The notes under the pieces were generated by a model that was not told where the DNA came from, did no database searches, and saw only the letters and a program-made list of their open reading frames with translations. This document shows positions 1,316-19,283 of a stretch of DNA of 57,290 nucleotides, in pieces. The translations under genes were made by a program, and so were the position numbers. Position 1 is the first letter of the stretch. Every line of letters starts with the position of its first letter. The stretch is from an uncultured virus (IMG/VR IMGVR_UViG_3300045970_000330) (Duplodnaviria > Heunggongvirae > Uroviricota > Caudoviricetes): the IMG/VR virus record IMGVR_UViG_3300045970_000330. The stretch is one strand, 5' to 3'.

Positions 1316-1719
1316 TACTTCCCCTCACCGAAGGCGTCAGCAGCACGCGCTAGCATGGTCTGCTTAACCTCCGTTACCTCCTGCATAGCAGGTTCATCAA
1401 TAGCCCTATTGAAGTGATCGACAATAAGCTCAGCTGTGCTACGCTGCCCGCCCTTGTTCTCACCCGCAGACTGTGAGGGTAGAGCTTTCAGTGCCTGCCC
1501 TAGCTCAATAATGCGCTTGTTAGACGCAGATAGGGCACTATGATCAATCGACTCAGAAGAATACAGCTCGGAGTTGATTCGTGTTTCGCATACCAGCATG
1601 CGAGTCATCTGATCCCGCAGTGCCTTAACGGGATCGGCTTGCACTTCGGCTTCTAGGTAGATGTCTGCCCGCTCAATGTTGGTGCGCTCCTGGGCGCTCT
1701 TAGGCGCCTTACGGGTCAC
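1315..1719 (-). CDS. Putative terminase small subunit (134 aa, helical)
   Basis: GTG start coupled by GTGA to the upstream ORF and TAGTG coupling to terL. Function is inferred from position and size only. Confidence 0.5.
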   Translation of the reverse strand: MTRKAPKSAQERTNIERADIYLEAEVQADPVKALRDQMTRMLVCETRINSELYSSESIDHSALSASNKRIIELGQALKALPSQSAGENKGGQRSTAELIVDHFNRAIDEPAMQEVTEVKQTMLARAADAFGEGK

Positions 1720-1829
1720 TTTAAGCTCCGCATGATGACGGGCACGGGCTTCCAGAAACGCAGCACTGGTTCCACGGCGGCGGTTCCCAGCAGGATCATC
1801 AGAACGAAGGCGCGGCGAATTAGGGTCAT
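1716..1829 (-). CDS. 37-aa small membrane protein MTLIRRAFVLMILLGTAAVEPVLRFWKPVPVIMRSLK
   Basis: ATGA and GTGA translational coupling on both sides; one hydrophobic segment. Confidence 0.6.
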   Translation of the reverse strand: MTLIRRAFVLMILLGTAAVEPVLRFWKPVPVIMRSLK

Positions 1830-2158
1830 TGGATGCTTTCAGCTGTAATCTCGGGGTGGTGATTGTAATTGGTCGCGGTTTCGGCAGCGAGGAACTTTCG
1901 CCGTTCATGCTCCTGTAGATGGTCGGTCCCGAAAGGGATAGTGCCATCGGTATTAGGCTTGTCCAAATTAGATTGGTTATCACGAATCCACTTGTTGAGT
2001 TCAGGGTCATTGCCAAACTGCTTCAAAAGGTCATCAGAAAAATGGGGCTCTAGGCGATTGTTATTTCCTCGCAGGGAAGCAGCTGCATGAATTTTGTGTC
2101 TTGTCCCATTTTTGCTCCGGGGATTTGCCTGCGCCCGGTTAAGTTCAGAGTCGGTCAT
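1826..2158 (-). CDS. Hypothetical protein, first gene of the leftward packaging operon
   Basis: GGAG RBS and a minus-strand GGTGGTAATG motif at about 2179-2188. Confidence 0.75.
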   Translation of the reverse strand: MTDSELNRAQANPRSKNGTRHKIHAAASLRGNNNRLEPHFSDDLLKQFGNDPELNKWIRDNQSNLDKPNTDGTIPFGTDHLQEHERRKFLAAETATNYNHHPEITAESIQ

Positions 2159-2284
2159 GGTTTATAGCTCCTAGTGTCCATTACCACCGGAGCATTTGCT
2201 GCCTGCTGCTTTTCACTCAGGGGCTGCGTGTTTCCATTTTCCGCTTCGTTGGTGGTAAACAAATCTTGGGGGCGCCCGAGGGAC

Positions 2285-2510
2285 ACAAGTACACGTTTGA
2301 TAAGTACACTGCTTCTGTAATTACACTTCTTATCTATTCACACAGTATCTATAGATAGACTATACACTCATAAGACTATAATTAGCTAGCTACTATATAC
2401 AACTAACCTATATAGTTTAACGTGTACACGTTATATCTATATACAACGTATGTAGTGAAGCTAGCAGATATACGAGTGAAATATGTACACGCTGAATATG
2501 TACACGTGTG
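2285..2510. repeat. AT-rich divergent intergenic region with five GTACAC copies and the 16-bp palindrome TAACGTGTACACGTTA (2418-2433)
   Basis: GTACAC at 2289, 2304, 2424, 2485 and 2500; AATATGTACACG occurs twice. Confidence 0.8.
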
Positions 2511-2549
2511 GAAAAGTCGGGTGGTAGTAATTATTGAAGGGACTAACCG

Positions 2550-2786
2550 ATGAGCAAGAAGCAGCAAGTAACTATTAATCCAATAGCAACAGCACTTGAG
2601 TGGATTATGGGCTCAACCCTTAGTGAACCCCGCGCAGTTGGCATTCGTTTCGATGCAGGGCAGAGCGAAATGACCATCAAGATGATCTCGGGGGGCAAAG
2701 CAATCAATGAAGTAACTATCACGGGCGTGCGAGCTGCAAGACATATCCTGGACGATGCAGCGGATGCCTTGGTGGTAATTAGCTAG
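2550..2786 (+). CDS. Hypothetical protein
   Basis: Purine-rich RBS and upstream GGTGGTAGTAA motif variant. Confidence 0.7.
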   Translation: MSKKQQVTINPIATALEWIMGSTLSEPRAVGIRFDAGQSEMTIKMISGGKAINEVTITGVRAARHILDDAADALVVIS

Positions 2787-2797
2787 TAGGAGATCCC

Positions 2798-3493
2798 TTG
2801 AGCAAAGCAACCATGAAGACCTCACCCAAACCCCGAGTCGCGGAAGATACCGATGACCTTATGGAATCCCTCATGGGTGGTCCTTCGCTGCTGAGCCCGT
2901 TTGCCCCTGTGATTACTATCCGGGGTGAAGTTGATGCAGCTATGGCAGGCGCTTTCCGCACAGCTGTGGACAAGCTCAAATACCAGCGGCGTAGTGAAGT
3001 CGCCATGTTGGAGATCAATTCCATCGGGGGCTCCATTTTTGCGGGCTTTGAAATGGTCAACATCATGAAAGCCAGCGGCATGGACTGGATCACCTACAAT
3101 GCGAGCCACGCATTCAGTGTAGGAGCCCTGCTGTTGAGTGAAGGCAGTCCAGGGGCTAGGTTCATGTCTCCCATGGCTTCTGCCCTTATCCACGGCATGT
3201 CTACAGGCATTAGCTTCCAGGGTATTGATGAAGTATCCGCCCAGGTCGAGCATGATGTGTTCCTGAATGACATGCTGCTTGATGCCATCGCAAAGAATTG
3301 CTCTATGAGTCTTGTAAAGCTCAAGAAAATCATCAAGGATTCGGGAAGCCGTGACCTATGGCTTACCCCACAACAGGCACTTGACACGAAGCTTGTGGAC
3401 AAGATTTCTGTTATTTCTCTGGACCCCGTGCAGGGCTTTGAGCTGACAGTAGACGAGCCGTCCGATAAAAAGCCTAGCAAGGGCAAGAAATAA
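2798..3493 (+). CDS. clpP: ClpP-family serine protease
   Basis: INSIGGSIFAG, HAFSVG (catalytic Ser region), ALIHG and RDLWLTPQQALD motifs. Confidence 0.85.
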   Translation: MSKATMKTSPKPRVAEDTDDLMESLMGGPSLLSPFAPVITIRGEVDAAMAGAFRTAVDKLKYQRRSEVAMLEINSIGGSIFAGFEMVNIMKASGMDWITYNASHAFSVGALLLSEGSPGARFMSPMASALIHGMSTGISFQGIDEVSAQVEHDVFLNDMLLDAIAKNCSMSLVKLKKIIKDSGSRDLWLTPQQALDTKLVDKISVISLDPVQGFELTVDEPSDKKPSKGKK

Positions 3494-3513
3494 GCAGCAA
3501 GCAGCTACTACAG

Positions 3514-3551
3514 AGAGCGAGATCAGCGGTGGTAACAACTGATCTCGCTCT
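3514..3551 (+). promoter_or_regulatory. 13-bp perfect inverted repeat with CGGTGGTAACAA as its loop, upstream of nrdJ
   Basis: AGAGCGAGATCAG (3514-3526) pairs with CTGATCTCGCTCT (3539-3551). Confidence 0.75.
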
Positions 3552-3570
3552 TACTTTGTCTGGAGACATG

Positions 3571-5469
3571 ATGCACCAAAGTCAGTATCAACAGTTCATT
3601 CACCTAAGTCGCTACGCCCGGTGGCAGGAAGCTAGTAAGCGGCGGGAAACTTGGGATGAAACTGCTGATAGGTATGTAGACTACATTGCCAAGAAGTGCC
3701 CCCAGGTGCCCACTGAGGTTATTGAAGAAATTCGAGGGGCTATTAAGAGCCACCAAATTATGCCGTCTATGCGTGCCCTTATGACAGCGGGTAAGGCTTT
3801 AGATCGTGATAATGCTGCGGGATACAACTGCGGATTCTTGGCGGTAGATCATCCTAGGGCATTTGACGAAGCGCTATACTTGCTCGCATGTGGTGTAGGT
3901 GTTGGATTTAGCGTTGAACGCCAGTTCGTTAATCAGCTACCAACGGTTAGTGAGACATTTCACACTTCGTCTAATGTCATTACGGTTGGGGACTCGAAGA
4001 TTGGTTGGGCTACGGCGCTCAAGGAGCTGATTTCGCTTCTATACGTGGGTGAAGTCCCTACATACGACACGAGCAAAGTGCGGGCTGCTGGTGCGCGCCT
4101 GAAGACCTTTGGGGGGCGTGCAAGCGGTCCCGAGCCCTTGGAGCAGTTGTTCAAATACACCATTGCCCTGTTCCGGCGAGCCGCTGGACGCAGGCTCACA
4201 TCTATTGAGTGCCACGATCTTATGTGCAAAATCGCAGACACTATCGTGGTTGGTGGTGTGCGTAGATCAGCGCTTATTTCCTTGAGCAACCTGTCTGATG
4301 ACCGCATGCGCAATGCTAAATCGGGACAGTGGTGGGAAGCTCATCCAGAGCGGGCATTGGCTAATAATTCAGTCGCTTATACAGAGCGTCCTGAGATTGG
4401 CGCCTTCATGGGGGAGTGGAAGTCCCTGTATGATTCCAAAAGCGGAGAGCGCGGCGTAGTGAATCGCGGAGCAGCTAAGCGGGCAGCTATTGCTAATGGG
4501 CGGCGTGACCCCAATTATGACTTTGGCACTAATCCTTGTGGCGAAATCTTCCTGCGTCCCAATGGATTTTGCAATTTGACTGAGGTTGTTATCCGCGCTG
4601 GGGATGACATGGTAAGTCTGCGTAACAAGATTAGACTTGCTACTATTCTAGGCACCATGCAGTCCACCTTGACTGATTTCCGCTACCTACGATCAGTCTG
4701 GAAGAAGAACGCAGAGGACGAACGACTCCTAGGGGTAAGTCTTACGGGTATTATGGATAACTCCACCATGAACGGATCGGCGGGCATGGAGCAGCTTGAG
4801 GGCTCCTTAGTTCTTCTTAGGAATCATGCTATTGCTGTAAATAAGGATTATGCACAGTTACTGGGAATTAATCAAAGCACAGCTGTTACCACTGTAAAAC
4901 CATCAGGCACTGTTTCGCAGTTAGTTGATTCTGCTTCGGGTATCCACCCACGCTACTCGGAATACTATATCCGCACGGTTCGTGGCGATAAAAAGGACCC
5001 CCTTAGTCAGATGATGTTCATGAGTGGCATCCCTGCGGAGGATGAAGCGCGCCGCCCTGATGATATGTGGGTATTCTCGTTCCCCCAAAAATCACCAAAG
5101 GGTGCCATTTTGAGGAATGACAGAACCGCGCTAGAGCAGCTAGACCTGTATCTCGCATATAAGCGCTCATGGGCAGAGCATAATGTTTCCATCACGTGTT
5201 ACGTCAAGGAAGCCGAATGGTTGGAAGTTGGCGCCTGGGTTTATCGACATTGGGATTTGGTAGGTGGTGTATCGTTTCTACCACATGACGAAGGAACTAC
5301 GAGCTACGTCCAAGCACCTTACCAGGAAGTAACCAAGGATGCCTACGAAGCCCTGCTAGCAAAAATGCCCGATCTAAACTGGGATCTACTCAAAGAATAC
5401 GAAAAAATTGATTCCACTACAGGCAGCCACGATCTTGCCTGTGCTGCGGGCGGCTGTGAAATAGTGTGA
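3571..5469 (+). CDS. nrdJ: Class II (adenosylcobalamin-dependent) ribonucleotide reductase
   Basis: YNCGF, GGVRRSALI, TNPCGEI, CNLTE, TTVKPSGT and C-terminal CAAGGC. Start moved to the ATG after GGAG. Confidence 0.95.
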   Translation: MHQSQYQQFIHLSRYARWQEASKRRETWDETADRYVDYIAKKCPQVPTEVIEEIRGAIKSHQIMPSMRALMTAGKALDRDNAAGYNCGFLAVDHPRAFDEALYLLACGVGVGFSVERQFVNQLPTVSETFHTSSNVITVGDSKIGWATALKELISLLYVGEVPTYDTSKVRAAGARLKTFGGRASGPEPLEQLFKYTIALFRRAAGRRLTSIECHDLMCKIADTIVVGGVRRSALISLSNLSDDRMRNAKSGQWWEAHPERALANNSVAYTERPEIGAFMGEWKSLYDSKSGERGVVNRGAAKRAAIANGRRDPNYDFGTNPCGEIFLRPNGFCNLTEVVIRAGDDMVSLRNKIRLATILGTMQSTLTDFRYLRSVWKKNAEDERLLGVSLTGIMDNSTMNGSAGMEQLEGSLVLLRNHAIAVNKDYAQLLGINQSTAVTTVKPSGTVSQLVDSASGIHPRYSEYYIRTVRGDKKDPLSQMMFMSGIPAEDEARRPDDMWVFSFPQKSPKGAILRNDRTALEQLDLYLAYKRSWAEHNVSITCYVKEAEWLEVGAWVYRHWDLVGGVSFLPHDEGTTSYVQAPYQEVTKDAYEALLAKMPDLNWDLLKEYEKIDSTTGSHDLACAAGGCEIV

Positions 5470-5520
5470 CTTGACACAACGCCCGGTGGTAACAATCAAT
5501 AACCTAACAAGGAGCTATAC

Positions 5521-5775
5521 ATGAACGAGCTAGAAACAGCAGTATCGGAACTCAATGCCCTTCTTGGATGCATGGAATCCGGTTACTACCAAATGGGCGG
5601 TCCTGACATCCTGATGCTCACGCATAAGTTCAAGGAACAGGATGGCACCTATACACAGACGCACAAGATCCAGGTTCAGGGGACGGATGAGATCCTAATT
5701 GATTGGATCGCCTCTAAGCTGGATGCCATCAAACCGGAGCCCGTGGCGCCCGTAAAGGTGCCGAGAAAGAAGTGA
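5521..5775 (+). CDS. Hypothetical protein
   Basis: AAGGAG RBS and GGTGGTAACAA at 5485. Confidence 0.8.
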   Translation: MNELETAVSELNALLGCMESGYYQMGGPDILMLTHKFKEQDGTYTQTHKIQVQGTDEILIDWIASKLDAIKPEPVAPVKVPRKK

Positions 5776-6263
5776 CTGAGGCTATTCAACGTATCCACCT
5801 GTTCTGTGACGGGAACTACCTATACTTCAGTGCTCGCGGGGCAGGGCTCCACCAGGACTTTGCCAAACTGGAGAGTAATGTCATCGACAAATTCGGCGGT
5901 CCAGGGTGTGCTGTAATCGAATCTAGGTTCTTCTATACGCGCCCGCCTGCTGAAACAGATCCACATGCCGTCGTAGGGTGGTTAAAGGCACATCAGTGGA
6001 AGGTAGTTACCTACTCCTACGCCCACACTACCCAGGACACGCTCTATGTGAGCATGATTCACGATATGTGGAGTGTATTCTGTGCTGAGCCCCCGGATAC
6101 ACTGTCCTGTTTTGTGGTGATTAGTGGTAGCGGCGCGCTTGTGTATCCGCTGATGTCGTTCCCTAAGGCAATTATAGTTGCTTGCGTGGAAGCCTCCGCA
6201 AACAAACGTCTGCTTGATCTACCCGCTGTTGTTCACATCCCCCTGGTGTCTCTGCTCACGTGA
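5772..6263 (+). CDS. NYN/LabA-family (PIN-like fold) putative ribonuclease
   Basis: N-terminal IHLFCDGNYL, RFFY strand, QDT..VSMIHD and VVISGSG match the NYN layout. The usual SGDGD acidic residues appear degenerate. Confidence 0.65.
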   Translation: MTEAIQRIHLFCDGNYLYFSARGAGLHQDFAKLESNVIDKFGGPGCAVIESRFFYTRPPAETDPHAVVGWLKAHQWKVVTYSYAHTTQDTLYVSMIHDMWSVFCAEPPDTLSCFVVISGSGALVYPLMSFPKAIIVACVEASANKRLLDLPAVVHIPLVSLLT

Positions 6264-6283
6264 TCCAGCGGTGGTAACAGATA

Positions 6284-7080
6284 GTCAAGACGCCGGATGA
6301 GTCCAGTGCCAACATCCTTGATAACTTGGCTATCATGCTCGGTCTGCGCGAGAGCGCAATACCTGATGAGTGACGATAGGCGTTGGTCCCCGCTGCCCCA
6401 AACAAGCAGGAAAGATACGGGGGACTTGGGAAAGCAGGCATAGCTGCTCACATGTGCGCCATTCAGGAACTTCCACCAATGCCTCGGGTGGAGGGGGGAA
6501 CTGTCACAGATCGAGTGGACGTTAAAGCTCGAAAGCTCGGCGGGCACCCACACACGGGTAATACAGGAGTAACGCGGGGATCGTCCCCCCGCAGCATATT
6601 TGGGGTGTTGCTAATAGGCAACTTAATGGGGAGCGTTCACAACCCGCCCCTACCAAACGGTAACCCGCAAGGGTGGTTAGGACTCCTGCCGTATAAAAGG
6701 AGACTGGCGGCTTCTCCAGCCATCACTAGAAGAAGGAGAATGACAGGGCGCAAAGACGCCCACCAATCTAGTGGGGTAGCTCAGAAGGCGGTAGCCACCT
6801 ACACAATCTCACAGTTGATCGTGTGTAATGTGTTGAACCTTGTGGTAGCGAATGTGAGTTTAGTGCAGAAGCCATGCCTAGGTCGCTGTTGAAAATACAG
6901 CCCCCACTTCCATATATGAACCCGACTACAACCCCCTAGTGGCGGCTCTGTCGCGGAATGCCGGGTCATCCCAAATCCTCTACGGGTAACCGTTAGGGGT
7001 CATCTTCATAGTGCGTGCGAGGTGTTCATTTTTATTTTCGGGCACTGTGCCCATGAGTCTGCAACAGAACAACCGCTCGC
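6284..7080 (+). ncRNA. Structured ncRNA array A: serial hairpins and NCCA-ended tRNA-like units
   Basis: No credible CDS and dense stems. Helices end in ACCA, GCCA or TCCA at 6655, 6722, 6765 and 6912. GGTGGTAACAG precedes the array at 6270. Confidence 0.7.
6770..6912 (+). ncRNA. tRNA-like RNA with a roughly 85-90 nt insertion in place of the anticodon arm
   Basis: Acceptor AGTGGGG/CCCCACT plus T-CCA, TAGCTCAG start, AGGTC linker and T-arm GCTGT-TGAAAAT-ACAGC. Confidence 0.7.
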
Positions 7081-7114
7081 ATGGGTGGTAACAAGTAAGT
7101 GAAAGGATGTCCTT

Positions 7115-7354
7115 ATGACACCGAACGAAGCTCCTATCCATAGCGAGTGCAAGTCTCACAAGGTCCGCGTTAACGTAGAACTCTACATTAGCGCCCCTAC
7201 TGAAGAAGAAGCTGATCTGTTCGCCATGAAGTATGTGCGGCGCGCTCTTAGTTTGAACTTCCAGCAGGGTTTCTCCATTGATGTTCCCGTGCATGTCGGC
7301 ACCGGACTCATCAAGCAGGGTCGTGTTTCTGTCTATCACCCCCGGGTGATGTAG
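7115..7354 (+). CDS. Hypothetical protein
   Basis: AAAGGA RBS and GGTGGTAACAA at 7084. Confidence 0.75.
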   Translation: MTPNEAPIHSECKSHKVRVNVELYISAPTEEEADLFAMKYVRRALSLNFQQGFSIDVPVHVGTGLIKQGRVSVYHPRVM

Positions 7355-7467
7355 TGAGCGGGGTTCTAGTCTATCTAGGCGCAGGGCTGGCGATTATCGC
7401 TACAACGCCCTTGGTGTTCCTAAAGGGCTGTTGGGACTACATAGCGCTCTGGTGCAAGACGAAGTAG
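7354..7467 (+). CDS. 37-aa small membrane protein
   Basis: TAGTG coupling; hydrophobic VLVYLGAGLAIIATTPLVFL. Confidence 0.5.
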   Translation: MSGVLVYLGAGLAIIATTPLVFLKGCWDYIALWCKTK

Positions 7468-7787
7468 CAAGCGGGGCAGGGTTCTTAGCACCTAATCGGG
7501 AATCCTATCGTGAGGGCGTGGACGGGGCTACTCATGAACTTCAAGCAATACGCTCGGTGGTAACAAGCATCAAGGAAGTAGATCATTGACAACTTGGCGG
7601 CGGGAATATCCGCCTTATCATGCTCGGGGGCTACAAGCGGCGAACCCTTGATTGGGACGAACTAATAGAGCCTTTAACGACACCCCCGAGCAGTAGCGGA
7701 TCACCCCTCACGAGCGGCAGCCGACATGGGCTAATAACCCCGGCAAGGGATTAAGCCGATTGCCCGTGTCCCAGGTGGTCCTATCTT

Positions 7788-7851
7788 GCTCCATCGTCTA
7801 ATTAAGACCACGCATCGAGCGTTAATGTGGGTAAAGCCCACTGGAGCTACA
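7788..7851 (+). ncRNA. Miniature cloverleaf of about 60 nt with shrunken loops
   Basis: GCTCCA/TGGAGC acceptor, GTCT-AATTA-AGAC, ACGC-ATCGA-GCGT and GTGGG-TAAAG-CCCAC, followed by TACA. Confidence 0.65.
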
Positions 7852-8131
7852 AGAAGAACATCCCGCAGTTACTAGGTAAAAGCCGAGCAACACGGCAATG
7901 AAGCTTGCACCTAGAGACTCTCATCCTGATCGTGAAAGGGACAGAGCTAACTGGTTGTGGTGTTTGGACCCGGGGGACATGGCGCCCATACCCCCGGTAT
8001 CATGCGAGTGTTCCTTCCGTAGCGCGTATAAGGATCTCAGACCGATAGCGGTAGAGGGCTGAGGCTAAACCGAGTAGTCCATCATGCACGCCTTCATGAG
8101 CGCAGCTATCCCTCGGGAATCATGATCTCTA

Positions 8132-8201
8132 CCCCTGTAGTTTAACCAAAACGGACCCCGTGGGGGGTTTGTTACAGTCTTGGACGATTGTCGGGGGACC
8201 A
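8132..8201 (+). ncRNA. Aberrant tRNA-like RNA, CCA-ended, with GTG in its central loop
   Basis: CCCCTG/CGGGG acceptor plus ACCA, short GTTT/AAAC D-arm, GACCCC-GTGG-GGGGTT arm and ACAGTC-TTGGAC-GATTGT T-like arm. Confidence 0.6.
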
Positions 8202-8382
8202 ATTCATATACAGAAGGAGCAGACCCTAGTGTGGCATGGGGCGACTGGTTCGTAGAATCGAGTGGGCGTCACTTCCCAGGAGAGGATTCAAGCTAGTCAA
8301 ACGGAGTGGCGGGATCGAAAGGGGAGCAGGGTAGTGCCTGTGAAGCGAGTAGTGATGTGTTCACACCGACTGTATATATCAT

Positions 8383-8458
8383 GGGGCTATAGCTCAGCTG
8401 GGAGAGCGCCGCGTTTGCAACGCGGATGTCGCAGGTTCAAGCCCTGTTAGCTCCACCA
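8383..8458 (+). tRNA. tRNA-Ala(UGC)
   Basis: Canonical 76-nt cloverleaf with G3:U70, loop TTTGCAA and encoded CCA. Confidence 0.97.
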
Positions 8459-8610
8459 ATATTCCTATACGAATAAAAATATCCTAATAGGAATATTTCA
8501 AAAAGTCTGCCTACCCTGGGGGCACGGAGATCCATATGTGCGGAGAAATCCAGCTAGATCCCAACTGTCACAGTCAAACAGATACTTACTGCACTAGGGT
8601 TGGAAACACT

Positions 8611-8696
8611 GGGGGCGTGGTGGAATAGGTCTACACAGCATCTTTAGAAGGTGCCGCGTTAAACGCTTGCGAGTTCGAGTCTCGCCGCCCCCACCA
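8611..8696 (+). tRNA. tRNA-Leu(UAG)
   Basis: Type II cloverleaf with GCATC-TTTAGAA-GGTGC, TTCGAGT T-loop and ACCA. Confidence 0.95.
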
Positions 8697-8726
8697 CCCC
8701 AAGTAACCATAATAAATGGACAATTA

Positions 8727-8809
8727 CCCCTGATGATGGAATGCATACATAGCTAACTTAAAATTAGCCGCCCTAGGGATTGCGGGTTCAAGCCCCGCTC
8801 GGGGGACCA
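8727..8809 (+). tRNA. tRNA-Leu(UAA)
   Basis: GCTAA-CTTAAAA-TTAGC, variable arm, TTCAAGC T-loop and ACCA. Confidence 0.93.
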
Positions 8810-8855
8810 ATTCTTGTTTATACAAGTCAACGTAATACCCTTTTGGAGTAATACC

Positions 8856-9341
8856 ATGTCCTACCCTTACGACAAACTCAGCTCTGCACTGTATGAGCTG
8901 GGTAAGAACAACAGCACTACCTACACGCTTTACAGCACCTGGATTTACGAGGGGGGTTACCCCGGCGGCACCAAAGTGTGTCGGGCGCTGACTCAAGCCG
9001 CTGGCATCGAATGGGTGAGGGAGCAGCTGGGCACCTGGAGTAACGCTCTTACTCTGAGTGACATCGCGGCAGGGCTCCTAATTATCTCCCACCTAACAGG
9101 TCATTCGTATAATTGGTGCTACCCCGAACTAACACGCGATGGTGTCATCATTTACACAGGTAATGCGGATGCGGTCCTTACCTGGATCATGGCGGAACTG
9201 AATAACCCTAATAATCCCCTACCGGATGGCACAGGCACCACCAACGATGATGCTAAGGGAATCGTGCATCTTTCGGACGTTAACTGGGAAATCTACGATG
9301 CGTGGGTTCTAGCAAATGCTAATGGACCCTCGGACGTTTAG
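8856..9341 (+). CDS. Hypothetical protein, paralogue of 9426-9713
   Basis: GGAG RBS; shares W..P.L..D..II.TG....VLTW....LNNPNN.LP with the next gene. Confidence 0.85.
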   Translation: MSYPYDKLSSALYELGKNNSTTYTLYSTWIYEGGYPGGTKVCRALTQAAGIEWVREQLGTWSNALTLSDIAAGLLIISHLTGHSYNWCYPELTRDGVIIYTGNADAVLTWIMAELNNPNNPLPDGTGTTNDDAKGIVHLSDVNWEIYDAWVLANANGPSDV

Positions 9342-9425
9342 ACAAATAGCATGGAATACATACGCCCCCACTACATAAGTGGTGGAGGCATTACATCCTA
9401 GTAAAACACCTACCTGGAGTAATTA

Positions 9426-9713
9426 ATGGCGCTACCTTACCCCTGCGATACGCTGATTCACGCAATCGCCACCCTAAACCGATATGTAGTGGGTGAATAC
9501 ACCTGGGTTAATCCCGACCTTCTTCTTGACGATACGGTGATCTTCACCGGAACCGAGGAAGATGTTCTGACTTGGGTGTGGGCGGTGCTTAACAACCCCA
9601 ATAATTCCCTTCCCGTACACCCCTGGAAGGAGCAGTACCTTAGGGATGATCCAGGGCTTGAGTTTGTTGAATATGAACCCATGCCTGATATTCCTACGGC
9701 GAATGAAGGTTAG
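9426..9713 (+). CDS. Hypothetical protein, paralogue of 8856-9341
   Basis: Same TGGAGTAAT leader and shared motif. Confidence 0.85.
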   Translation: MALPYPCDTLIHAIATLNRYVVGEYTWVNPDLLLDDTVIFTGTEEDVLTWVWAVLNNPNNSLPVHPWKEQYLRDDPGLEFVEYEPMPDIPTANEG

Positions 9714-9759
9714 TAAGTAATTTCTAAAGCGGCGCCGCAGCGCTTAATCTGCGGCACTT

Positions 9760-9835
9760 CCTCCCGTAGCTCAGCGATCAGAGCTGTCGGCTCATAACCG
9801 ACTGGTCCTAGGTTTGAATCCTAGTGGGGGGACCA
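9760..9835 (+). tRNA. tRNA with CAU anticodon (elongator Met or lysidine-type Ile2)
   Basis: 76-nt cloverleaf with GTCGG-CTCATAA-CCGAC and ACCA. The paired 1:72 base pair rules out an initiator. Confidence 0.92.
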
Positions 9836-9950
9836 GCTTGTTCCCGCTCTCCCAAAAGGCTTGGCATCAGCCCGTCTGACGAATGGCGCGACTTGGGATC
9901 GGGCTTGAGTGAGTCTGAGAGCGCGCTAGTCGCGTGGGTAGGACTCCACC

Positions 9951-9982
9951 GGGGAGTAGCCATATGGTGCTCCCCCTTTTTT
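9951..9982 (+). terminator. Intrinsic terminator
   Basis: GGGGAGTA..TGCTCCCC stem followed by a T run. Confidence 0.8.
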
Positions 9983-10309
9983 GAGTGTTCCGCCCCAAAC
10001 ATCAGTGCGGTTGGGTGTTTACGGTCTGAATAGCACACAGCCAGCAAAATAGATGATGCTGGCAATCGTTGGGGGCATCGAGGGCATCGCGTTTTCAAGA
10101 CCTATAACCGCAGAGTAGCTTACTGCAAGGCTTGCCGATGAGCGACCTGGACCCTCTACCAAACCCACCCACACACCTCTAGCGTTGATGGATAGCCCGC
10201 TACTCATGCGGATTCTCAGTCTTGAAAACGGTAAGTGCAAATAGTGACCCGCATTAACGGGTATCGCTCCGTAGACGTATGGAGAGTGGGTATATCTTGA
10301 AGGAGCCCC

Positions 10310-10651
10310 ATGAGCAAGCAGCTAGAACAACTATTCAAGATTGATCAAATCCACTATCTATGTGTTTACCTGGGCATCGCCACACGTATGGCTACAATAT
10401 CAGGTAGTAACAAGTGGTTCCTACATTACGATGTCGGATCAAGAACCTTCACAGCACTCAATGGTTGGAAGGAGCCCAAGACGGATACCTTTTACACGGA
10501 ATCCAGGCGCCCGCCCGACTTCACAACAAATGAACATCGACACTCCCTGCATCAGATGTATCGCTCTCTCTGGATTGAGTGTGAAAAGAAAGCCATGGCA
10601 GCCCTAGTCGCTAGGGAAATGCGTGGATACGGAATTGAACCCATGCCTTGA
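10310..10651 (+). CDS. Hypothetical protein
   Basis: AAGGAG RBS. Confidence 0.8.
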   Translation: MSKQLEQLFKIDQIHYLCVYLGIATRMATISGSNKWFLHYDVGSRTFTALNGWKEPKTDTFYTESRRPPDFTTNEHRHSLHQMYRSLWIECEKKAMAALVAREMRGYGIEPMP

Positions 10652-10698
10652 CACATCGTGTGTCTTGTCACAACGCTTTACTATCTCTAGGAGAAGTT

Positions 10699-10890
10699 AT
10701 GGAACGCAAGAACATCAGTGAATTTCTCGGGCGCAAGCGCGCTATCGAAAAGGCGATCCGCTACGGTTATGGGCACGCTGAACTCTGCTCCATGCTGGAC
10801 GTGTCCCACGGGACCATGAGTCGCCTGCTGCTTGCGCTGTTTGGGCAGAATCTCACGCAGATCCGTGCAGAGTGGGGCATTGTAGCCTAG
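10699..10890 (+). CDS. Small helix-turn-helix protein
   Basis: AELCSMLDVSHGTMSRLL; AGGAG RBS; upstream TTGACA and TGTGTCTTGTCACA operator. Confidence 0.65.
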   Translation: MERKNISEFLGRKRAIEKAIRYGYGHAELCSMLDVSHGTMSRLLLALFGQNLTQIRAEWGIVA

Positions 10891-10896
10891 AACACG

Positions 10897-10983
10897 GCTG
10901 GGGTGCCGCAGAGGTCTACCGGACGGGATTTGTAACCCCGCAGCGAAAGCTAGTCGCAGGTTCAAATCCTGTCCCCAGCTCCA
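10897..10983 (+). tRNA. Atypical tRNA-Thr(UGU) with a long variable arm
   Basis: GCTGGGG/CCCCAGC-T-CCA, CGGGA-TTTGTAA-CCCCG, V-arm AGC-GAAA-GCT and GCAGG-TTCAAAT-CCTGT. Confidence 0.8.
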
Positions 10984-11057
10984 AACTTCTTTCAAGCAAT
11001 ACTCCGTGGTGGTCATGGGGGTTTACAAAATAACCCTGCACCACCACGGAGGAATGA

Positions 11058-11459
11058 ATGTCCCTGTTTCATCAGCACCTTCTAGTCAAGGCGCTCGTTT
11101 CTAGTCCTCCCCGTAGTGAGGAAGCTCTTAATGCGTGGCTTAACGCCCTAGTTGCTGCGATAAATATGAACGTATGCATAGCTCCTAGAAGTTTCTATGT
11201 GGATACCCCAGGAAATGAAGGACTTACTGGGCAGATAGGGCTCTCAACTTCGCATTGCGCGATTCATGTTTGGGATCATGTAATCCCGGCACTTGTGCAG
11301 CTAGACGTTTACAGCTGTAAGGAGTATGAAGCACAAACCGTTGTTAATATGCTCCGCAACTGGGGGCTGATCTCCTGGGAACTCATGGAGATAGATCGCA
11401 ACGATACATTCAAGATCACCAAGCACGAAACGGGAACGGTATATATTCACGAGGATTAA
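11058..11459 (+). CDS. speD: S-adenosylmethionine decarboxylase family proenzyme (pyruvoyl-dependent)
   Basis: HQHLLV, GLTG..GLSTSHCAIHVW and QLDVYSCK. Confidence 0.88.
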   Translation: MSLFHQHLLVKALVSSPPRSEEALNAWLNALVAAINMNVCIAPRSFYVDTPGNEGLTGQIGLSTSHCAIHVWDHVIPALVQLDVYSCKEYEAQTVVNMLRNWGLISWELMEIDRNDTFKITKHETGTVYIHED

Positions 11460-11473
11460 TCAATACAGAAGGG

Positions 11474-11508
11474 AAGGGCAGGGGCTTCGGCTTCTGCCCT
11501 TTTTTTTT
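11474..11508 (+). terminator. Intrinsic terminator
   Basis: AGGGCAGGGGC-TTCG-GCTTCTGCCCT followed by T8. Confidence 0.92.
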
Positions 11509-11527
11509 ATTGGTGGTAACAATTTGA

Positions 11528-12010
11528 ATGACGATACCCACTATCTTCCTGACAGGCTGGCGAGCGATTAAGAAAATACAGAGAAGGACCGCGCTAGCAG
11601 CTTGCCTGTTTACCTCCACACTGCTCATAGCTCCTATGGTTCCACCTACTATACTTAGGGAATACGTGCATGTAGTTCAGGCAGCTACTAAGGCTAGCTT
11701 CTACGGGACACCCGAGGATGGCTTCGTAGGCAACCTCATGGCATCCGGTAAGCGACTCACGGTGGGCATGATGATCGCCGCCCATCCCACGCTTCCCTTT
11801 GGAACTAAGATCCGAGTTACAAATCTGCTTAATGGGTTAAGTGTGGATGTAACTGTGATGGATCGGGGTCCCTTCGTGCAGGGCAGGGGCGTGGACCTAA
11901 GTTATGCAGCTGCGCAGGCGCTGGATATGGAAGACATGGGTATCGCTAAGGTTCGTGTGTCCGTGCTCAGTTATGTTACAGAGAAACTGACGGTTGGTAA
12001 CAAAGCTTAG
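11528..12010 (+). CDS. rlpA: RlpA-like lytic transglycosylase (double-psi beta-barrel)
   Basis: ASFYG, AAHPTLPFGTKIRVTNL and VMDRGPFVQGRGVDLSYAAA; N-terminal hydrophobic anchor. Confidence 0.92.
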   Translation: MTIPTIFLTGWRAIKKIQRRTALAACLFTSTLLIAPMVPPTILREYVHVVQAATKASFYGTPEDGFVGNLMASGKRLTVGMMIAAHPTLPFGTKIRVTNLLNGLSVDVTVMDRGPFVQGRGVDLSYAAAQALDMEDMGIAKVRVSVLSYVTEKLTVGNKA

Positions 12011-12021
12011 AAGGAGCGACC

Positions 12022-13167
12022 ATGCTTGCAGTTCAAGACTATTTACGAGCCCCTGGACATACCCTAGAGACACTCACCGCAGACTACGCCATCAAAGTGC
12101 GGGTAGACGAATACCTTCGGGTTGCTGCCCTCAATTACAACCAAATTGAATCCGACATGAAGCAGCCCATCTGTCAGGAATGTCGGGGGCTCATCCTGGC
12201 GCTGGGAACTTGGGATGTATTGTGCCTGCCGTTCAAAAAATTCAGCAATTTAGGTGAGTCATATCTACAGGAATTTGACTGGACTAACTTCTGCGCTTAC
12301 GAGAAGCTGGATGGGACCCTCATATCCATTTACTATCATCCTCAGCATGGATGGCAGATAGCTACCCGGGGCGTTCCTGACGCCTCAGGACCCATTGATG
12401 GCTCGGGGATGACCTTCAGGACACTTACACTGTTAGCCCTCAAGGAAATGGGGTATGACGGTCCTTTAGGATGGGAGCGGTTCTTCGCCCAACTCAAACC
12501 GCGCTTTACCTACCACTTTGAGCTAACAGCGCCCGAAAATCGCATAGTTGTTGCATATTCTGAGCGTAAATTGTCACTTCTTGCAGTCAGGGACAGTTTA
12601 TCCCTAAAAGAGCTGGCATTATCGGGGTTCCCGCACCTAAATCCAGCAAAACTGTATGAATTTTCCTCAAAGGAGCAGCTTCTGGAGGCTGCTACCCTCA
12701 TTAATCCCATAGAGCATGAGGGTTTTGTAGTAAAGGACTGGGCAGACAGGCGCCTAAAGATCAAATCGGAGGCTTGGTGCCTCGCTAGTAAGTGCCGGGA
12801 CTCCCTCGGAGCATCCAGATTGAATCAATTTGAAATGATTTTGAGCGAAAAGCAGGACGATGTTAAGTCGCTACTGCCCGAGTTCGTTGTTAAATCCATG
12901 GAATTGCTCGAAACTGACATGATGCTGCTGCTACAAGCGGCTAAAAACAGCTGGTTACGCTATAGATTCGTGGATAACCAGCGGGATTTCGCCCTTTACA
13001 TCAAGCATCTTCCATTTGCTCATCTACTTTTTGAGCAGCGTAGGGCTCCGAAGCCGGATTTTAACACTGAAATATTCCTTGATATGGCACGCAGGAATCC
13101 GCGCAAGGCTTTGGAAATGATTGACAACACTACTAAGCTGCTATTCGCACAAACTCAGGTGGCGTAA
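12022..13167 (+). CDS. T4 Rnl1-like RNA ligase
   Basis: ECRGLI, PFKKFSN, motif I EKLDGT, FELTAPENRIVV, EGFVV and RLKIKS. Confidence 0.92.
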   Translation: MLAVQDYLRAPGHTLETLTADYAIKVRVDEYLRVAALNYNQIESDMKQPICQECRGLILALGTWDVLCLPFKKFSNLGESYLQEFDWTNFCAYEKLDGTLISIYYHPQHGWQIATRGVPDASGPIDGSGMTFRTLTLLALKEMGYDGPLGWERFFAQLKPRFTYHFELTAPENRIVVAYSERKLSLLAVRDSLSLKELALSGFPHLNPAKLYEFSSKEQLLEAATLINPIEHEGFVVKDWADRRLKIKSEAWCLASKCRDSLGASRLNQFEMILSEKQDDVKSLLPEFVVKSMELLETDMMLLLQAAKNSWLRYRFVDNQRDFALYIKHLPFAHLLFEQRRAPKPDFNTEIFLDMARRNPRKALEMIDNTTKLLFAQTQVA

Positions 13168-13790
13168 TGGACTTTTTTACGAGTGACCTACATTTGGGAC
13201 ACACATCAATTATTGAGTGGTGTGTAAGACCGTGCAGCGATGTAGAAACCATGCATGAAATGCTAATTGAGCGCTGGAATACCGTCATTACACCCCGGGA
13301 CCGTGTATGGGTGCTGGGTGATTTACTTATGGCGCCCGCAAATAAAAAGAAAGAACTGGAAATCATCCAGCGCAGGCTTGAACCCATCGGTAGATTGAAT
13401 GGTGAAGTCCATTTGATCCCAGGCAACCATGATCGTTGCCACAAGGATATTTACAAAGATGGGGCAAGCTGGGAACAGGTCTATCTGGATGCGGGAGTAA
13501 CCAAAATTCATCCACCAACCGTGCAAATCGAGGTTGTAGACGAAGATGTGACATGGCACATCCTTATGAATCACTTCCCCTACGCTGGTGAGCAGGCTGG
13601 GGATGATCGCTATGAGGCTCTACGTCCTGATAGGAAGCAGGCGTTCAACATGCCTCTGCTACATGGGCACGTGCACGGCACCTGGGTTCAGCAGGGCAGC
13701 ATGCTCAATGCAGGGTGTGACGCTCACGGGTGGTATCCAATCAGTATGGAGACTGTTATTGCACGGCTCCGTCCTTACAAAACGATTTAG
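13167..13790 (+). CDS. Calcineurin-like metallophosphoesterase
   Basis: SDLHLGH, LGD, GNHD and HGHVH; translationally coupled to the ligase. Confidence 0.93.
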   Translation: MDFFTSDLHLGHTSIIEWCVRPCSDVETMHEMLIERWNTVITPRDRVWVLGDLLMAPANKKKELEIIQRRLEPIGRLNGEVHLIPGNHDRCHKDIYKDGASWEQVYLDAGVTKIHPPTVQIEVVDEDVTWHILMNHFPYAGEQAGDDRYEALRPDRKQAFNMPLLHGHVHGTWVQQGSMLNAGCDAHGWYPISMETVIARLRPYKTI

Positions 13791-13798
13791 GAGATCAG

Positions 13799-14494: not shown

Positions 14495-14751
14495 ACATCC
14501 TGGAACGGGCTATAGATATTTATGGCGAAGACCTGATGGGGCTGGATGGTTTTGATGAGTGCCTAGCTGGTGTAGTTGTAAGGGCAGGGCAGAACCCCAT
14601 CCTGTGCTACGACATTCTAGCGATTATCCAGACTCTTATGGATGGGGGTATGACTTCCGAAGCCGCCTGGGAATACTTTGAGTTTAATCAACTAGGGGCA
14701 TGGGTGGGTAATGATACCCCATGCTTCTTACACAATTTGGATAGGAACTAG
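14491..14751 (+). CDS. Conserved-looking phage hypothetical protein
   Basis: DGFDECLAG..YD..EAAWEYFEFN.LGAWVG..TP; ATGA coupling. Confidence 0.8.
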   Translation: MNILERAIDIYGEDLMGLDGFDECLAGVVVRAGQNPILCYDILAIIQTLMDGGMTSEAAWEYFEFNQLGAWVGNDTPCFLHNLDRN

Positions 14752-14753
14752 AT

Positions 14754-15323: not shown

Positions 15324-15648
15324 CTACACGACTTAAAAATATAGCTACGCTGGACCCTTGACATGTCTAGCCCTCAGTGCAACACTCTTTTTATTCCGGC
15401 ACAACCCATAGAGGTCACCTTCTTTAAGGACCACTATATGTTGTGCCGGATTTCTTTTTTCAGGGCAAGCGAAACAAACCTGTTGACAAAGGACACCCTG
15501 TGAATGATAGAATGATCGCCGGGGTGCAATGCAGAAAAAAGCCCCAATAGAAATAAACACGAACACTTGACTCGCGGGTAACTTTTATGGTAAGACAGAA
15601 CTACAACCACGAGTGTCGCTCGACACTCTTTTCCAGGGAGGCTGCCCC

Positions 15649-16379: not shown

Positions 16380-16422
16380 TGGTGGTAACAACCCAAGTAG
16401 ACGAGCTACATTCGAGGTGCCC

Positions 16423-19274: not shown

Positions 19275-19283
19275 AGGATACAC

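What the first reader, a model, noticed from the sequence alone, without database searches (positions are those of the whole stretch)
6770..6912. tRNA-like RNA with an 85-90 nt insert replacing the anticodon arm
Seen: a perfect 7-bp acceptor, a 5-bp T-stem with non-canonical loop TGAAAAT and encoded CCA enclose a long insert closed by AGGCG/TGCCT or CCTA/TAGG. It is too short for tmRNA or a group I intron, lacks G3:U70, and is not permuted like YrlA. Inference: either a new tRNA-like-domain ncRNA, or an intron-containing tRNA needing protein-catalysed splicing, for which the phage encodes a candidate nuclease, kinase, phosphoesterase and ligase.
Basis: partly seen in the sequence, partly recalled or inferred. 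Interest (0 to 1): 0.75.

Follow-up and report, generated by a model that had tools for sequence, protein, structure and literature searches.

The report
Orphan non-decoding tRNA-like unit in phage
A new pond phage carries, just upstream of its real tRNA genes, a 143-base tRNA-derived unit that keeps the acceptor stem, T stem and CCA end but cannot read codons, much like the long-known, still unexplained tRNA-like stable RNAs of phages T4 and T5.

Summary
Window 6770-6912 (+) has a 7/7 Watson-Crick acceptor stem, a canonical D-arm start (TAGCTCAG..GG..TA), a 5/5 T stem with the odd loop TGAAAAT, and TCCA. Acceptor + T arm + CCA is expected 0.037 times per shuffled window. TAGCTCAG sitting directly next to it makes chance negligible.

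It is not a working tRNA. ARAGORN, Rfam and my own tRNA model do not call it. No single excision rebuilds an anticodon arm (at most 4 of 5 stem pairs, never with U33). The T loop lacks positions 55/56 and the G53:C61 pair. The intron reading is therefore not supported. The ligase, kinase and phosphoesterase genes look like an RNA-repair set.

My best parse is a cloverleaf in canonical order, with about 66 nt inserted between the D arm and a degenerate anticodon-like arm. The unit lies in non-coding DNA on the tRNA strand, near two other degenerate tRNA-shaped units.

I found no homologue anywhere, so there is no covariation evidence, and no RNA data.

Most likely it is a remodelled or decayed tRNA paralogue. 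If transcribed, it would be cut out like a tRNA. In design it resembles T4 species 1 RNA and T5 RNA1. Interest is modest.

The parts
6770..6776 (+). Acceptor stem, 5' strand (AGTGGGG). The base before it (6769) is T.
   Evidence: 7/7 WC with 6902-6908. Pair probabilities 0.75-1.0.
6777..6795 (+). U8-A9 and a D-arm-like segment: GCTC AGAAGGCGG TAGC. The stem has 3 pairs plus a C13.T22 mismatch. A14, R15, G18, G19 and A21 are present.
   Evidence: Read from sequence. TAGCTCAG occurs 7 times against 1.88 expected in the window. The local D stem is not favoured by energy (probability 0.0).
6797..6862 (+). About 66 nt of extra sequence at the D-arm/anticodon-arm junction (position 26/27).
   Evidence: Not specially structured on its own: MFE -10.6, z = +0.83. 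No Rfam match. Non-coding by codon log-odds. Its resemblance to the unit's own 5' end (TGTGGTAGC) is not significant, p about 0.18.
6863..6879 (+). Degenerate anticodon-like arm: GTGCA / GAAGCCA / TGCCT. It has 4 of 5 stem pairs including one G.T, and the loop lacks Y32, U33 and R37.
   Evidence: The MFE contains an overlapping hairpin at 6860-6881 with the same 7-nt loop.
6880..6884 (+). Variable-loop-like AGGTC.
   Evidence: Read from sequence. My own tRNA model aligns it to the variable region.
6885..6901 (+). T arm: GCTGT / TGAAAAT / ACAGC. T54 and A58 are kept. Position 55 is G, 56 is A, and 53:61 is T:A. An alternative register is a 4-bp stem closed by G:C with the 9-nt loop TTGAAAATA.
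   Evidence: Pair probabilities 0.87-0.90. ARAGORN cannot see this arm even when a perfect anticodon arm is grafted in (control).
6902..6912 (+). Acceptor 3' strand CCCCACT, discriminator T, and encoded CCA, followed by an AT-rich trailer.
6270..6279 (+). GGTGGTAACA, a promoter-like phage motif that could drive transcription through the non-coding stretch holding the unit. The next copy is at 7084.
   Evidence: 10 exact + strand copies. With up to 1 mismatch there are 14 matches against 2.68 expected. The copies lie after terminators and 15-35 nt before start codons. The promoter role is an inference.

Best explanation
The unit is a remodelled or decayed paralogue of a phage tRNA gene. It is not a decoder and not an intron-bearing tRNA.

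It keeps the 'top half' of a tRNA: the acceptor stem stacked on the T stem, the discriminator and an encoded CCA. It also keeps the 5' D-arm signature. Three things have changed: about 66 nt were gained at the D/anticodon junction, the anticodon loop has degenerated (GAAGCCA), and the T-loop partners of G18/G19 are lost.

It sits in non-coding DNA on the same strand as the tRNA genes and 1.47 kb upstream of them. It lies downstream of a promoter-like motif, with no + strand terminator in between.

Inferred steps, not shown here:
- It is co-transcribed with this leader.
- RNase P cuts at 6769/6770, because an acceptor/T minihelix with NCCA and U at -1 is a known RNase P substrate type.
- The 3' end is trimmed to CCA, giving a roughly 143-nt tRNA-like RNA that cannot be used in translation.

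I think it most likely has no specific function of its own and is a by-product of duplication and decay in the tRNA cluster. In design and size it is the same kind of object as T4 species 1 RNA (139 nt) and T5 RNA1 (144 nt).
For: - tRNA origin: chance is excluded.
- Non-decoding:
  - ARAGORN gives no call by default, at a lowered threshold or in intron mode. This is weak on its own, because ARAGORN cannot see this T arm (control).
  - Rfam tRNA is absent even at E<=10.
  - My own tRNA model gives 5.5 bits.
  - There is no canonical anticodon arm, before or after any single excision.
- Non-coding DNA:
  - All six frames score about 0 or below over 6500-7090.
  - The overlapping ORFs have no Pfam or PHROG hit.
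  - Relatives carry a 1-nt deletion at 6493, inside the 169-aa ORF.
- Decay context:
  - 8131-8201 is a recognisable relic of tRNA-Leu(UAA). It shares the 5' TACCCCTG and an exact 15-nt 3' end plus flank and scores 11.7 bits.
  - 7787-7852 is a tRNA-shaped unit without a 7-nt anticodon loop (18.1 bits).
  - Of the 4 non-tRNA hits of at least 10 bits in the whole window, these 2 lie in this 2-kb stretch on the + strand.
- Dispensability hint: in one contig of run X3 the conserved module 6315-6548 is followed at once by the GGTGGTAACA motif and AAGGAG. The roughly 535 nt that hold the unit appear absent there (only 30 nt of flank were seen).
- Insert unstructured: z = +0.83.
- Precedent: T4 rnaC/rnaD and T5 RNA1/RNA2 are annotated in their tRNA clusters as stable (tRNA-like) RNAs of unknown function. 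Their folds have an acceptor-like stem plus T arm around an enlarged middle.
Against: - Both top-half helices are perfect (12 of 12 WC pairs) and CCA is encoded, while the loops have diverged. That pattern could reflect selection on the minihelix, meaning a functional RNA and not a relic.
- No relative was found, so neither decay nor conservation can be measured.
- Transcription, processing and stability are all inferred. No RNA run holds the stretch.
- The promoter role of GGTGGTAACA is inferred.
- Unlike T4 rnaC and T5 RNA1/2, the T loop is not canonical. The unit scores lower with my tRNA model (5.5 bits) than any of them (12.9-20.6 bits).
- The paralogy with the phage's own tRNA-Thr (22 of 33 identical 3' bases) is only suggestive.
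Confidence: 0.5

Rival explanations
1. It is a functional, non-decoding tRNA mimic. The 143-nt RNA would be made on purpose, and its acceptor/T minihelix with CCA would engage a protein that recognises the top half of tRNAs. Candidates are a host tRNA-targeting defence nuclease (decoy or sponge), the phage's own RNA-repair enzymes, or RNase P / the CCA-adding enzyme. Alternatively it serves as an RNase P 'punctuation' site for processing the leader transcript.
For: - 12 of 12 WC pairs in the acceptor and T stems, encoded CCA, U at -1, and T54/A58, U8, A14 and G18G19 all kept despite diverged loops.
- Same strand as the tRNAs, downstream of a promoter-like motif.
- A neighbouring 66-nt mini-cloverleaf at 7787-7852 has all four stems intact and z = -4.0. 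That is hard to explain by decay alone.
- The phage invests in RNA repair: ligase, phosphoesterase and PNK-like kinase.
- T4 and T5 keep comparable RNAs.
Against: - It is an orphan. There was no match in the phage records. There was none among 8 IMG/VR, 1 metagenome and 1 GTDB-genome scans. There was none in 11 RNR-related loci.
- It appears absent from a relative.
- The fold is not more stable than shuffles, and the insert is unstructured.
- The elbow contacts G18-55 and G19-56 cannot form as in tRNA.
Confidence: 0.3
2. It is an intron-containing tRNA whose 65-90 nt insert is removed by protein enzymes (an NYN or other nuclease, then kinase/phosphoesterase and Rnl1 ligase) to give a working tRNA.
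For: - Candidate enzymes are encoded.
- Phage tRNA genes with unexplained introns are in print for Lak megaphages (passages read in PMC6784885).
- The exon-like ends are tRNA-like.
Against: - No single excision restores a 5-bp anticodon stem with a U33 loop.
- 0 of 1653 in-silico deletion variants were called by ARAGORN. This is weak, because ARAGORN cannot see this T arm.
- The T loop lacks 55/56 and G53:C61, so even a spliced product would be aberrant.
- ARAGORN intron mode does not call it, though that is weak for the same reason.
- No group I or group II match.
- The host is bacterial by its sigma-70-like promoters and rho-independent terminators, so no archaeal-type splicing endonuclease is expected.
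- The enzyme set is explained by RNA repair (PMC7824862).
Confidence: 0.04
3. It is a chance juxtaposition of complementary 7-mers, a hairpin and CCA in non-coding DNA.
For: - Acceptor-like 7-mer pairs ending in NCCA are at background level: 47 on the + strand and 57 on the - strand of the window.
- Acceptor plus T hairpin without CCA is expected 1.75 times per window.
- Fold z = -1.05.
Against: - With CCA the expectation is 0.037 per window.
- TAGCTCAG follows the acceptor strand exactly as in the two true tRNAs that carry it.
- G18G19, A21, an AGGTC variable loop and the position next to the tRNA cluster on the same strand all add to this.
Confidence: 0.02

Closest known systems
Phage T5 RNA1 (144 nt) and RNA2 (125 nt), annotated in AY543070 as 'tRNA-like stable RNA with unknown functions'
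   Same: - Encoded inside the phage tRNA gene region on the tRNA strand.
- An acceptor-type stem directly abuts a T arm.
- There is a D-arm-like 5' part and an enlarged middle where the anticodon arm should be.
- Almost the same length: 144 vs 143 nt.
- They score poorly as tRNAs with my model, 12.9-20.6 bits.
   Different: - No sequence similarity.
- The T5 RNAs have canonical T loops (TTCAACT, TTCGAAT) and this unit does not.
- The T5 RNAs are known to accumulate in infected cells. That comes from the record's annotation; the primary papers were not read. Nothing is known here.
Phage T4 species 1 RNA (rnaC, 139 nt) and species 2 RNA (rnaD, 119 nt)
   Same: - Small RNAs from the tRNA cluster with unknown roles (passages read in PMC3014915 and PMC9697503).
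- rnaC folds with a terminal stem next to a canonical T arm and two long inserted hairpins.
- Similar size.
   Different: - rnaC has no encoded CCA, has a canonical T loop, and folds far better than shuffles (z = -4.6 against -1.05 here).
- It lies at the distal end of the cluster, not upstream.
- No homology.
Intron-bearing tRNA genes of Lak megaphages (Devoto et al. 2019, PMC6784885)
   Same: Oversized phage tRNA genes with unexplained inserted sequence (passages read).
   Different: Those were typed as tRNAs with an anticodon once the insert is removed. Here no excision yields an anticodon arm.
tmRNA tRNA-like domain / YrlA (Y RNA-like)
   Same: Acceptor and T arm retained, with the anticodon region replaced by other RNA.
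   Different: - No G3:U70 and no tag frame.
- 143 nt is far below tmRNA size.
- ARAGORN tmRNA mode found nothing.
- No Rfam tmRNA or YrlA hit at E<=10.
- Not permuted.
- No Ro/TROVE protein among the 58 ORFs scanned against Pfam.

Membership tests
Canonical tRNA (Rfam RF00005) | Reaches the covariance-model threshold or is called by tRNA finders | tested here: not met
   - No RF00005 hit at gathering score or at E<=10.
- ARAGORN gives no call at default or lowered threshold or in intron mode.
- My own tRNA model gives 5.5 bits, against 36-78 bits for the 5 true tRNAs.
Canonical tRNA (Rfam RF00005) | 5-bp anticodon stem with a 7-nt loop carrying U33 and a purine at 37 | tested here: not met
   The best candidate is GTGCA/GAAGCCA/TGCCT, with 4 of 5 pairs and no U33 or R37. 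No other hairpin qualifies.
Canonical tRNA (Rfam RF00005) | T loop T54-Psi55-C56-R57-A58 closed by G53:C61 | tested here: not met
   The loop is TGAAAAT closed by T:A. Only T54, R57 and A58 are kept.
Canonical tRNA (Rfam RF00005) | 7-bp acceptor stem, discriminator, CCA, U8, and D-loop A14/G18G19 | tested here: met
Intron-containing tRNA | Removing one contiguous insert restores a complete cloverleaf | tested here: not met
   Among all single excisions that leave a 3-24 nt variable region, the best has 4 of 5 stem pairs and none of those has U33.
Intron-containing tRNA | The insert belongs to a known intron class (group I or II) or carries a bulge-helix-bulge motif | tested here: inconclusive
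   No group I/II match in Rfam, and 66-89 nt is too short for them. The bulge-helix-bulge motif was not formally scanned. The host looks bacterial.
tmRNA | G3:U70, a tag reading frame, a canonical T loop, and a length of roughly 250 nt or more | tested here: not met
   Position 3:70 is T3:A70 and the unit is 143 nt. ARAGORN -m found 0. No Rfam hit.
YrlA / Y RNA-like | Permuted tRNA-like domain plus a Ro-binding helix, with a Ro (TROVE) gene nearby | tested here: not met
   No RF02553 hit. The unit is not permuted. No TROVE domain in the 58 ORFs scanned.
Phage tRNA-like stable RNAs (T4 rnaC; T5 RNA1/RNA2). An operational class, not a homology family. | Encoded in or next to the phage tRNA cluster, on the same strand | tested here: met
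   The unit ends 1.47 kb upstream of the first tRNA (8383) on the + strand, in non-coding DNA.
Phage tRNA-like stable RNAs (T4 rnaC; T5 RNA1/RNA2) | Acceptor-like stem abutting a T arm, with an enlarged middle domain, about 120-145 nt | tested here: met
   compared.
Phage tRNA-like stable RNAs (T4 rnaC; T5 RNA1/RNA2) | Canonical T loop | tested here: not met
   TGAAAAT here, against TTCGAAT or TTCAACT in rnaC, RNA1 and RNA2.
Phage tRNA-like stable RNAs (T4 rnaC; T5 RNA1/RNA2) | Accumulates as a stable processed RNA in infected cells | not testable with these tools
   No RNA run holds the stretch. The host is unknown.

The most novel reading that the evidence does not exclude
The 2-kb non-coding leader of the tRNA cluster (6270-8383) is a dedicated operon of non-decoding tRNA mimics. 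Its members would be this 143-nt unit, the 66-nt mini-cloverleaf at 7787-7852 and the CCA-ended Leu-derived hairpin at 8131-8201. They would be expressed from phage-specific GGTGGTAACA promoters and released by RNase P. Their role would be as decoys or sponges for host tRNA-targeting defence nucleases, working alongside the phage's RNA-repair enzymes.
Probability: 0.1. Interest if true: 0.7.

Novelty: new member of a known kind. Interest (0 to 1): 0.3.

Why it matters
tRNA-like stable RNAs have been known in the tRNA clusters of T4 and T5 for decades without an assigned role (PMC3014915 and PMC9697503, passages read). An unrelated environmental phage with the same design suggests either that such units arise again and again as by-products of tRNA-gene turnover, or that the top-half tRNA mimic is a recurrent functional solution. 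This single orphan copy cannot decide between those. It adds a data point, not a new principle. The practical value is in annotation: it is neither a tRNA nor an intron-bearing tRNA, and the nearby ligase, kinase and phosphoesterase genes should not be read as a splicing pathway.

Tried and rejected
Homologue searches (all empty or chance):
- blastn of 6200-7200 against 50,697 phage records gave no match.
- Megablast of 1-20000 hit only tRNA-Ala, in 6 records.
- Exact or gapped patterns from the unit in IMG/VR: the 26-mer gave 0. The D-arm/T-loop gapped pattern gave 10 loci, all coding-like chance hits. The 18-nt D-arm word gave 2 IMG/VR and 6 GTDB loci, and 0 of those 8 contain a tRNA.
- Protein-anchored searches for syntenic relatives:
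  - RNR gave 6 IMG/VR and 5 metagenome loci at 53-65% identity. None has DNA similarity to 6263-8383.
  - Only L006, of the six IMG/VR loci scanned, has tRNAs.
  - NYN, RNA ligase and PolA found no relatives.

Expression: no RNA holder is listed among the 6 runs found. The 4 laid DNA runs do not cover 6756-6971.

No whole genome is held for this window.

ARAGORN deletion scan: 0 of 1653 variants were called. The control showed that ARAGORN cannot see this T arm even with a grafted perfect anticodon arm. I therefore replaced that test with an explicit stem/loop enumeration.

Internal-duplication idea: TGTGGTAGC at 6841-6849 resembles the unit's 5' end, but this is not significant (p about 0.18).

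Other candidates dropped:
- A tRNA-like unit I suspected at 6601-6655 has no T arm and scores only 4.5 bits.
- 15779-15867 is a rho-independent terminator, not a tRNA.

Sliding-window fold z-scores over 6230-8574 show no outstanding structure at the unit.

attP reading: no integrase domain among the 58 ORFs scanned.

Earlier-findings look-ups by place and by sequence returned nothing.

Two paper searches and one more gave nothing specific. Supplements of the papers were not opened.
Full report
**Setting**

The window is a tailed phage with no close relative in any collection I could search. Pfam identifies these genes:
- a terminase (2-1315, minus strand);
- a ClpP-type protease (2798-3493);
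- a class II ribonucleotide reductase, RNR (3529-5469);
- a NYN-domain protein (5772-6263);
- an Rnl1-type RNA ligase (12022-13167);
- a metallophosphoesterase (13167-13790);
- a dNMP kinase (14754-15323);
- a P-loop kinase (32899-33426), which also matches a PHROG polynucleotide kinase;
- a family A DNA polymerase (52066-54516).

ARAGORN finds five tRNA genes on the + strand between 8383 and 10983, all with encoded CCA. Sigma-70-like promoters and rho-independent terminators around 15480-15870 point to a bacterial host. The only sequencing runs that hold the stretch are DNA runs labelled pond, sediment, freshwater or microbial-mat metagenome. No whole genome is held.

**The observation**

- A 7/7 Watson-Crick acceptor stem (AGTGGGG / CCCCACT).
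- A 5/5 T stem (GCTGT / ACAGC) with loop TGAAAAT.
- Discriminator T and CCA.
- T3:A70 where alanine tRNAs have G3:U70.
- Both proposed closing helices, as simple complementarity.

I scanned the window for a 7-bp WC acceptor, a directly adjacent 5-bp WC stem with a 7-nt loop, and NCCA. That returns two units on the + strand, this one and the true tRNA-Leu(UAG), and none on the minus strand. In 300 dinucleotide shuffles the mean count was 0.037 per window on both strands, and 2.7% of shuffles had any. Without the CCA requirement the pattern is ordinary (1.75 per shuffle). Acceptor-like 7-mer pairs ending in NCCA are at background level (47 and 57 per strand).

What settles the matter is the 5' part. 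Directly after the acceptor strand comes TAGCTCAG AAGG CGG TAGC. That gives U8, A9, a D stem start, A14, R15, G18, G19 and A21. TAGCTCAG occurs 7 times in the window (1.88 expected), and three of those are this unit, tRNA-Ala and tRNA-Met. The unit therefore derives from, or closely imitates, a tRNA gene.

**What it is not**

It is not a working tRNA.
- ARAGORN does not call it at default or lowered thresholds, or in intron mode.
- Rfam has no tRNA, tmRNA, YrlA or intron match here, either at gathering score or at E<=10 in two small sub-searches.
- I built my own covariance model from 16 class I tRNAs of this window, a related contig, T4 and T5.
  - It scores the five true tRNAs at 36-78 bits.
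  - It gives this unit 5.5 bits, aligning only 6839-6912.

The T loop keeps T54, R57 and A58. It has G and A at positions 55 and 56, and T:A where G53:C61 would be, so the standard G18-55 and G19-56 elbow contacts cannot form. An alternative register (4-bp stem closed by G:C, 9-nt loop TTGAAAATA) is closer to the consensus in sequence but not in geometry.

**The intron reading**

A first attempt is uninformative. I made 1653 single-deletion variants and ARAGORN called none. A control showed that ARAGORN cannot call this T arm even when the perfect anticodon arm of tRNA-Ala or tRNA-Met is grafted in.

I then enumerated every single excision between the D arm (ending at 6795) and the T stem (starting at 6885) that leaves position 26, a 17-nt arm and 3-24 nt of variable region. 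The best cases have 4 of 5 stem pairs, and none of those has U33. No hairpin in the insert has a 7-nt loop with U33. At 66-89 nt the insert is too short for group I or II introns, and none matched. The defining feature of an intron-bearing tRNA is therefore not met.

Ligase plus phosphoesterase plus polynucleotide-kinase-like protein is the usual phage RNA-repair set against host RNases (passage in PMC7824862).

**Anatomy**

Thermodynamic folding strongly supports only the acceptor (pair probabilities 0.75-1.0) and the T stem (0.87-0.90).
- Enforcing the D stem raises the energy from the MFE of -42.4 to -37.2 kcal/mol.
- Enforcing AGGCG/TGCCT gives -37.2.
- Enforcing D plus ACCTA/TAGGT gives -33.3.
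- The MFE instead pairs GCUCA 6779-6783 with UGAGU 6855-6859. It also forms a hairpin at 6860-6881 with the 7-nt loop GAAGCCA.

Reading the sequence against the tRNA plan, the parts fall in canonical order and size:
- acceptor (7 nt);
- UA;
- D arm (17 nt, with one mismatch);
- C26;
- about 66 extra nt (6797-6862);
- a degenerate anticodon-like arm GTGCA/GAAGCCA/TGCCT (6863-6879);
- AGGTC as the variable loop;
- T arm (17 nt);
- acceptor (7 nt);
- TCCA.

I prefer this parse to 'insert replaces the anticodon arm', but without relatives it cannot be proven. The extra 66 nt are not specially structured (z = +0.83). The whole unit is no more stable than shuffles (z = -1.05).

**Surroundings**

Codon log-odds trained on 17 long genes of the window are positive in the frames of the flanking genes. 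They are about 0 or negative in all six frames over 6500-7090 and 7600-8383. The ORFs that overlap the region have no Pfam or PHROG match. So about 1.9 kb upstream of the tRNA genes is essentially non-coding.

The motif GGTGGTAACA occurs 10 times exactly, always on the + strand. With up to one mismatch there are 14 matches against 2.68 expected. The copies sit after terminators and 15-35 nt before start codons, so I read it as a phage promoter (an inference). Copies at 6270, 7084 and 7556 bracket the non-coding stretches. No + strand terminator lies between 6270 and 7084.

My tRNA model finds two further + strand units in this leader.
- 7787-7852 scores 18.1 bits. Its MFE is a perfect miniature cloverleaf with 3-5-nt loops, and z = -4.0.
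- 8131-8201 scores 11.7 bits. It shares the 5' leader and acceptor start with tRNA-Leu(UAA), plus an exact 15-nt 3' end with CCA and flank.

Over the whole window only four non-tRNA hits reach 10 bits, and these are two of them. A 5-bp microhelix followed by ACCA lies immediately upstream of the unit at 6746-6765 (7.3 bits). The leader is therefore populated with tRNA-derived elements that cannot decode.

**Relatives**

None was found for the unit.
- Phage records: no match.
- IMG/VR, JGI metagenomes and GTDB genomes: only chance hits to short patterns.
- RNR-anchored loci are 53-65% identical in protein and share no DNA with the leader.
- NYN, RNA ligase and PolA have no close relatives.

Laying contigs of four other runs showed that 6315-6548 is about 95% identical in three unrelated samples, with different flanks. 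In one contig that module is followed at once by GGTGGTAACA and AAGGAG. This hints that the roughly 535 nt holding the unit are absent from that relative. Only 30 nt of flank were visible, so it is a weak hint. Nothing covers 6756-6971 in those runs, and no RNA run holds the stretch.

**Comparison with the known**

- T4 carries rnaC (species 1 RNA, 139 nt) and rnaD (119 nt) at the end of its tRNA cluster.
- T5 carries RNA1 (144 nt) and RNA2 (125 nt), annotated 'tRNA-like stable RNA with unknown functions', plus several other stable RNAs.
- Their folds show a terminal acceptor-like stem next to a T arm and an enlarged middle.
- Two papers say that the roles of RNAC and RNAD are unknown (passages in PMC3014915 and PMC9697503).
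- With my tRNA model these known RNAs also score low. rnaC gets 14.0 bits and RNA1 12.9 bits (T arm only in both), RNA2 20.6 and RNA3 16.0.

A low score therefore does not exclude this class. But the present unit is lower still, because its T loop is not canonical. Lak megaphage tRNA introns (PMC6784885, passages) differ, because an anticodon is recovered there.

**Verdict**

The unit is real and tRNA-derived, and it cannot decode. I put 0.5 on a remodelled or decayed tRNA paralogue with no specific function of its own. It would still be cut out by RNase P and trimmed to CCA if the leader is transcribed (inferred from the minihelix, U at -1 and CCA). I put 0.3 on a functional top-half tRNA mimic, 0.04 on a spliced tRNA and 0.02 on chance, with the remainder unassigned.

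The perfect acceptor and T stems and the well-folded mini-cloverleaf nearby keep the functional reading alive. Against it are the orphan status, the apparent absence from a relative, the unstructured insert and the broken elbow.

Noticed in passing
window 7787-7852 (+): A 66-nt miniature cloverleaf. Acceptor 6 bp, D arm 4 bp with a 5-nt loop, 'anticodon' arm 4 bp with a 5-nt loop, T arm 5-6 bp with a 3-5-nt loop, and no CCA. It is the best non-tRNA hit of my tRNA model (18.1 bits, E = 0.006 over the whole window). Its MFE is the cloverleaf itself, z = -4.0, with 0 of 200 shuffles as stable. Structurally it is more convincing than the finding.
   Followed up: partly
window 8131-8201 (+): A 70-nt CCA-ended unit that is a relic or variant of tRNA-Leu(UAA). 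It shares TACCCCTG at the 5' end and an exact 15-nt 3' end plus flank (TCGGGGGACCAATTC), but has no D or T arm. It folds as a long irregular hairpin, z = -2.1, and scores 11.7 bits.
   Followed up: partly
window 6746-6765 (+): A 5-bp microhelix (GGGCG/CGCCC, 6-nt loop) followed by ACCA, ending 4 nt before the finding. z = -3.1 and 7.3 bits with my tRNA model.
   Followed up: partly
window 6315-6548: A 234-nt module about 95% identical in contigs of three other metagenome runs (sediment, freshwater, mat) whose flanks differ. The relatives carry a 1-nt deletion at 6493. It is not specially structured (z = +0.55), has no Rfam, Pfam or PHROG match, and is not in IMG/VR by a 22-mer. Its nature is unknown.
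   Followed up: partly
window 3528, 5485, 6270, 7084, 7556, 11512, 16092, 16381, 18203, 52065 (+): GGTGGTAACA repeated 10 times exactly, on the + strand only. Most copies lie after terminators and 15-35 nt before start codons. It also appears in a relative's contig flank. It is probably a phage-specific promoter.
   Followed up: partly
window 10897-10983 (+): tRNA-Thr(UGU) is 87 nt with a 15-nt variable arm (hairpin AGC-GAAA-GCT). That is a class II shape, unusual for threonine tRNA. Its discriminator is U.
   Followed up: no
L006 11250-11352 (+): In an RNR-related IMG/VR contig, a 103-nt tRNA-Ile(UAU) scores 50.5 bits with the Rfam tRNA model. It has a 27-nt variable arm holding a second anticodon-like hairpin (loop CAGATAA, GAT). 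ARAGORN called the inner arm instead.
   Followed up: partly
window 12022-13790 and 32899-33426: An RNA-repair gene set: an Rnl1-type ligase, an adjacent metallophosphoesterase, and a separate P-loop kinase matching PHROG polynucleotide kinase. A NYN-domain protein lies directly upstream of the non-coding leader.
   Followed up: partly
window 32040-32090 (-): A weak hit of my tRNA model (15 bits, E = 0.049 over the whole window), on the strand opposite to the genes.
   Followed up: no
L006 8001-10736: The RNR match spans about 2.7 kb, against about 1.9 kb in the window and the other loci. That suggests an inserted element (intein or intron) in that relative's RNR gene.
   Followed up: no
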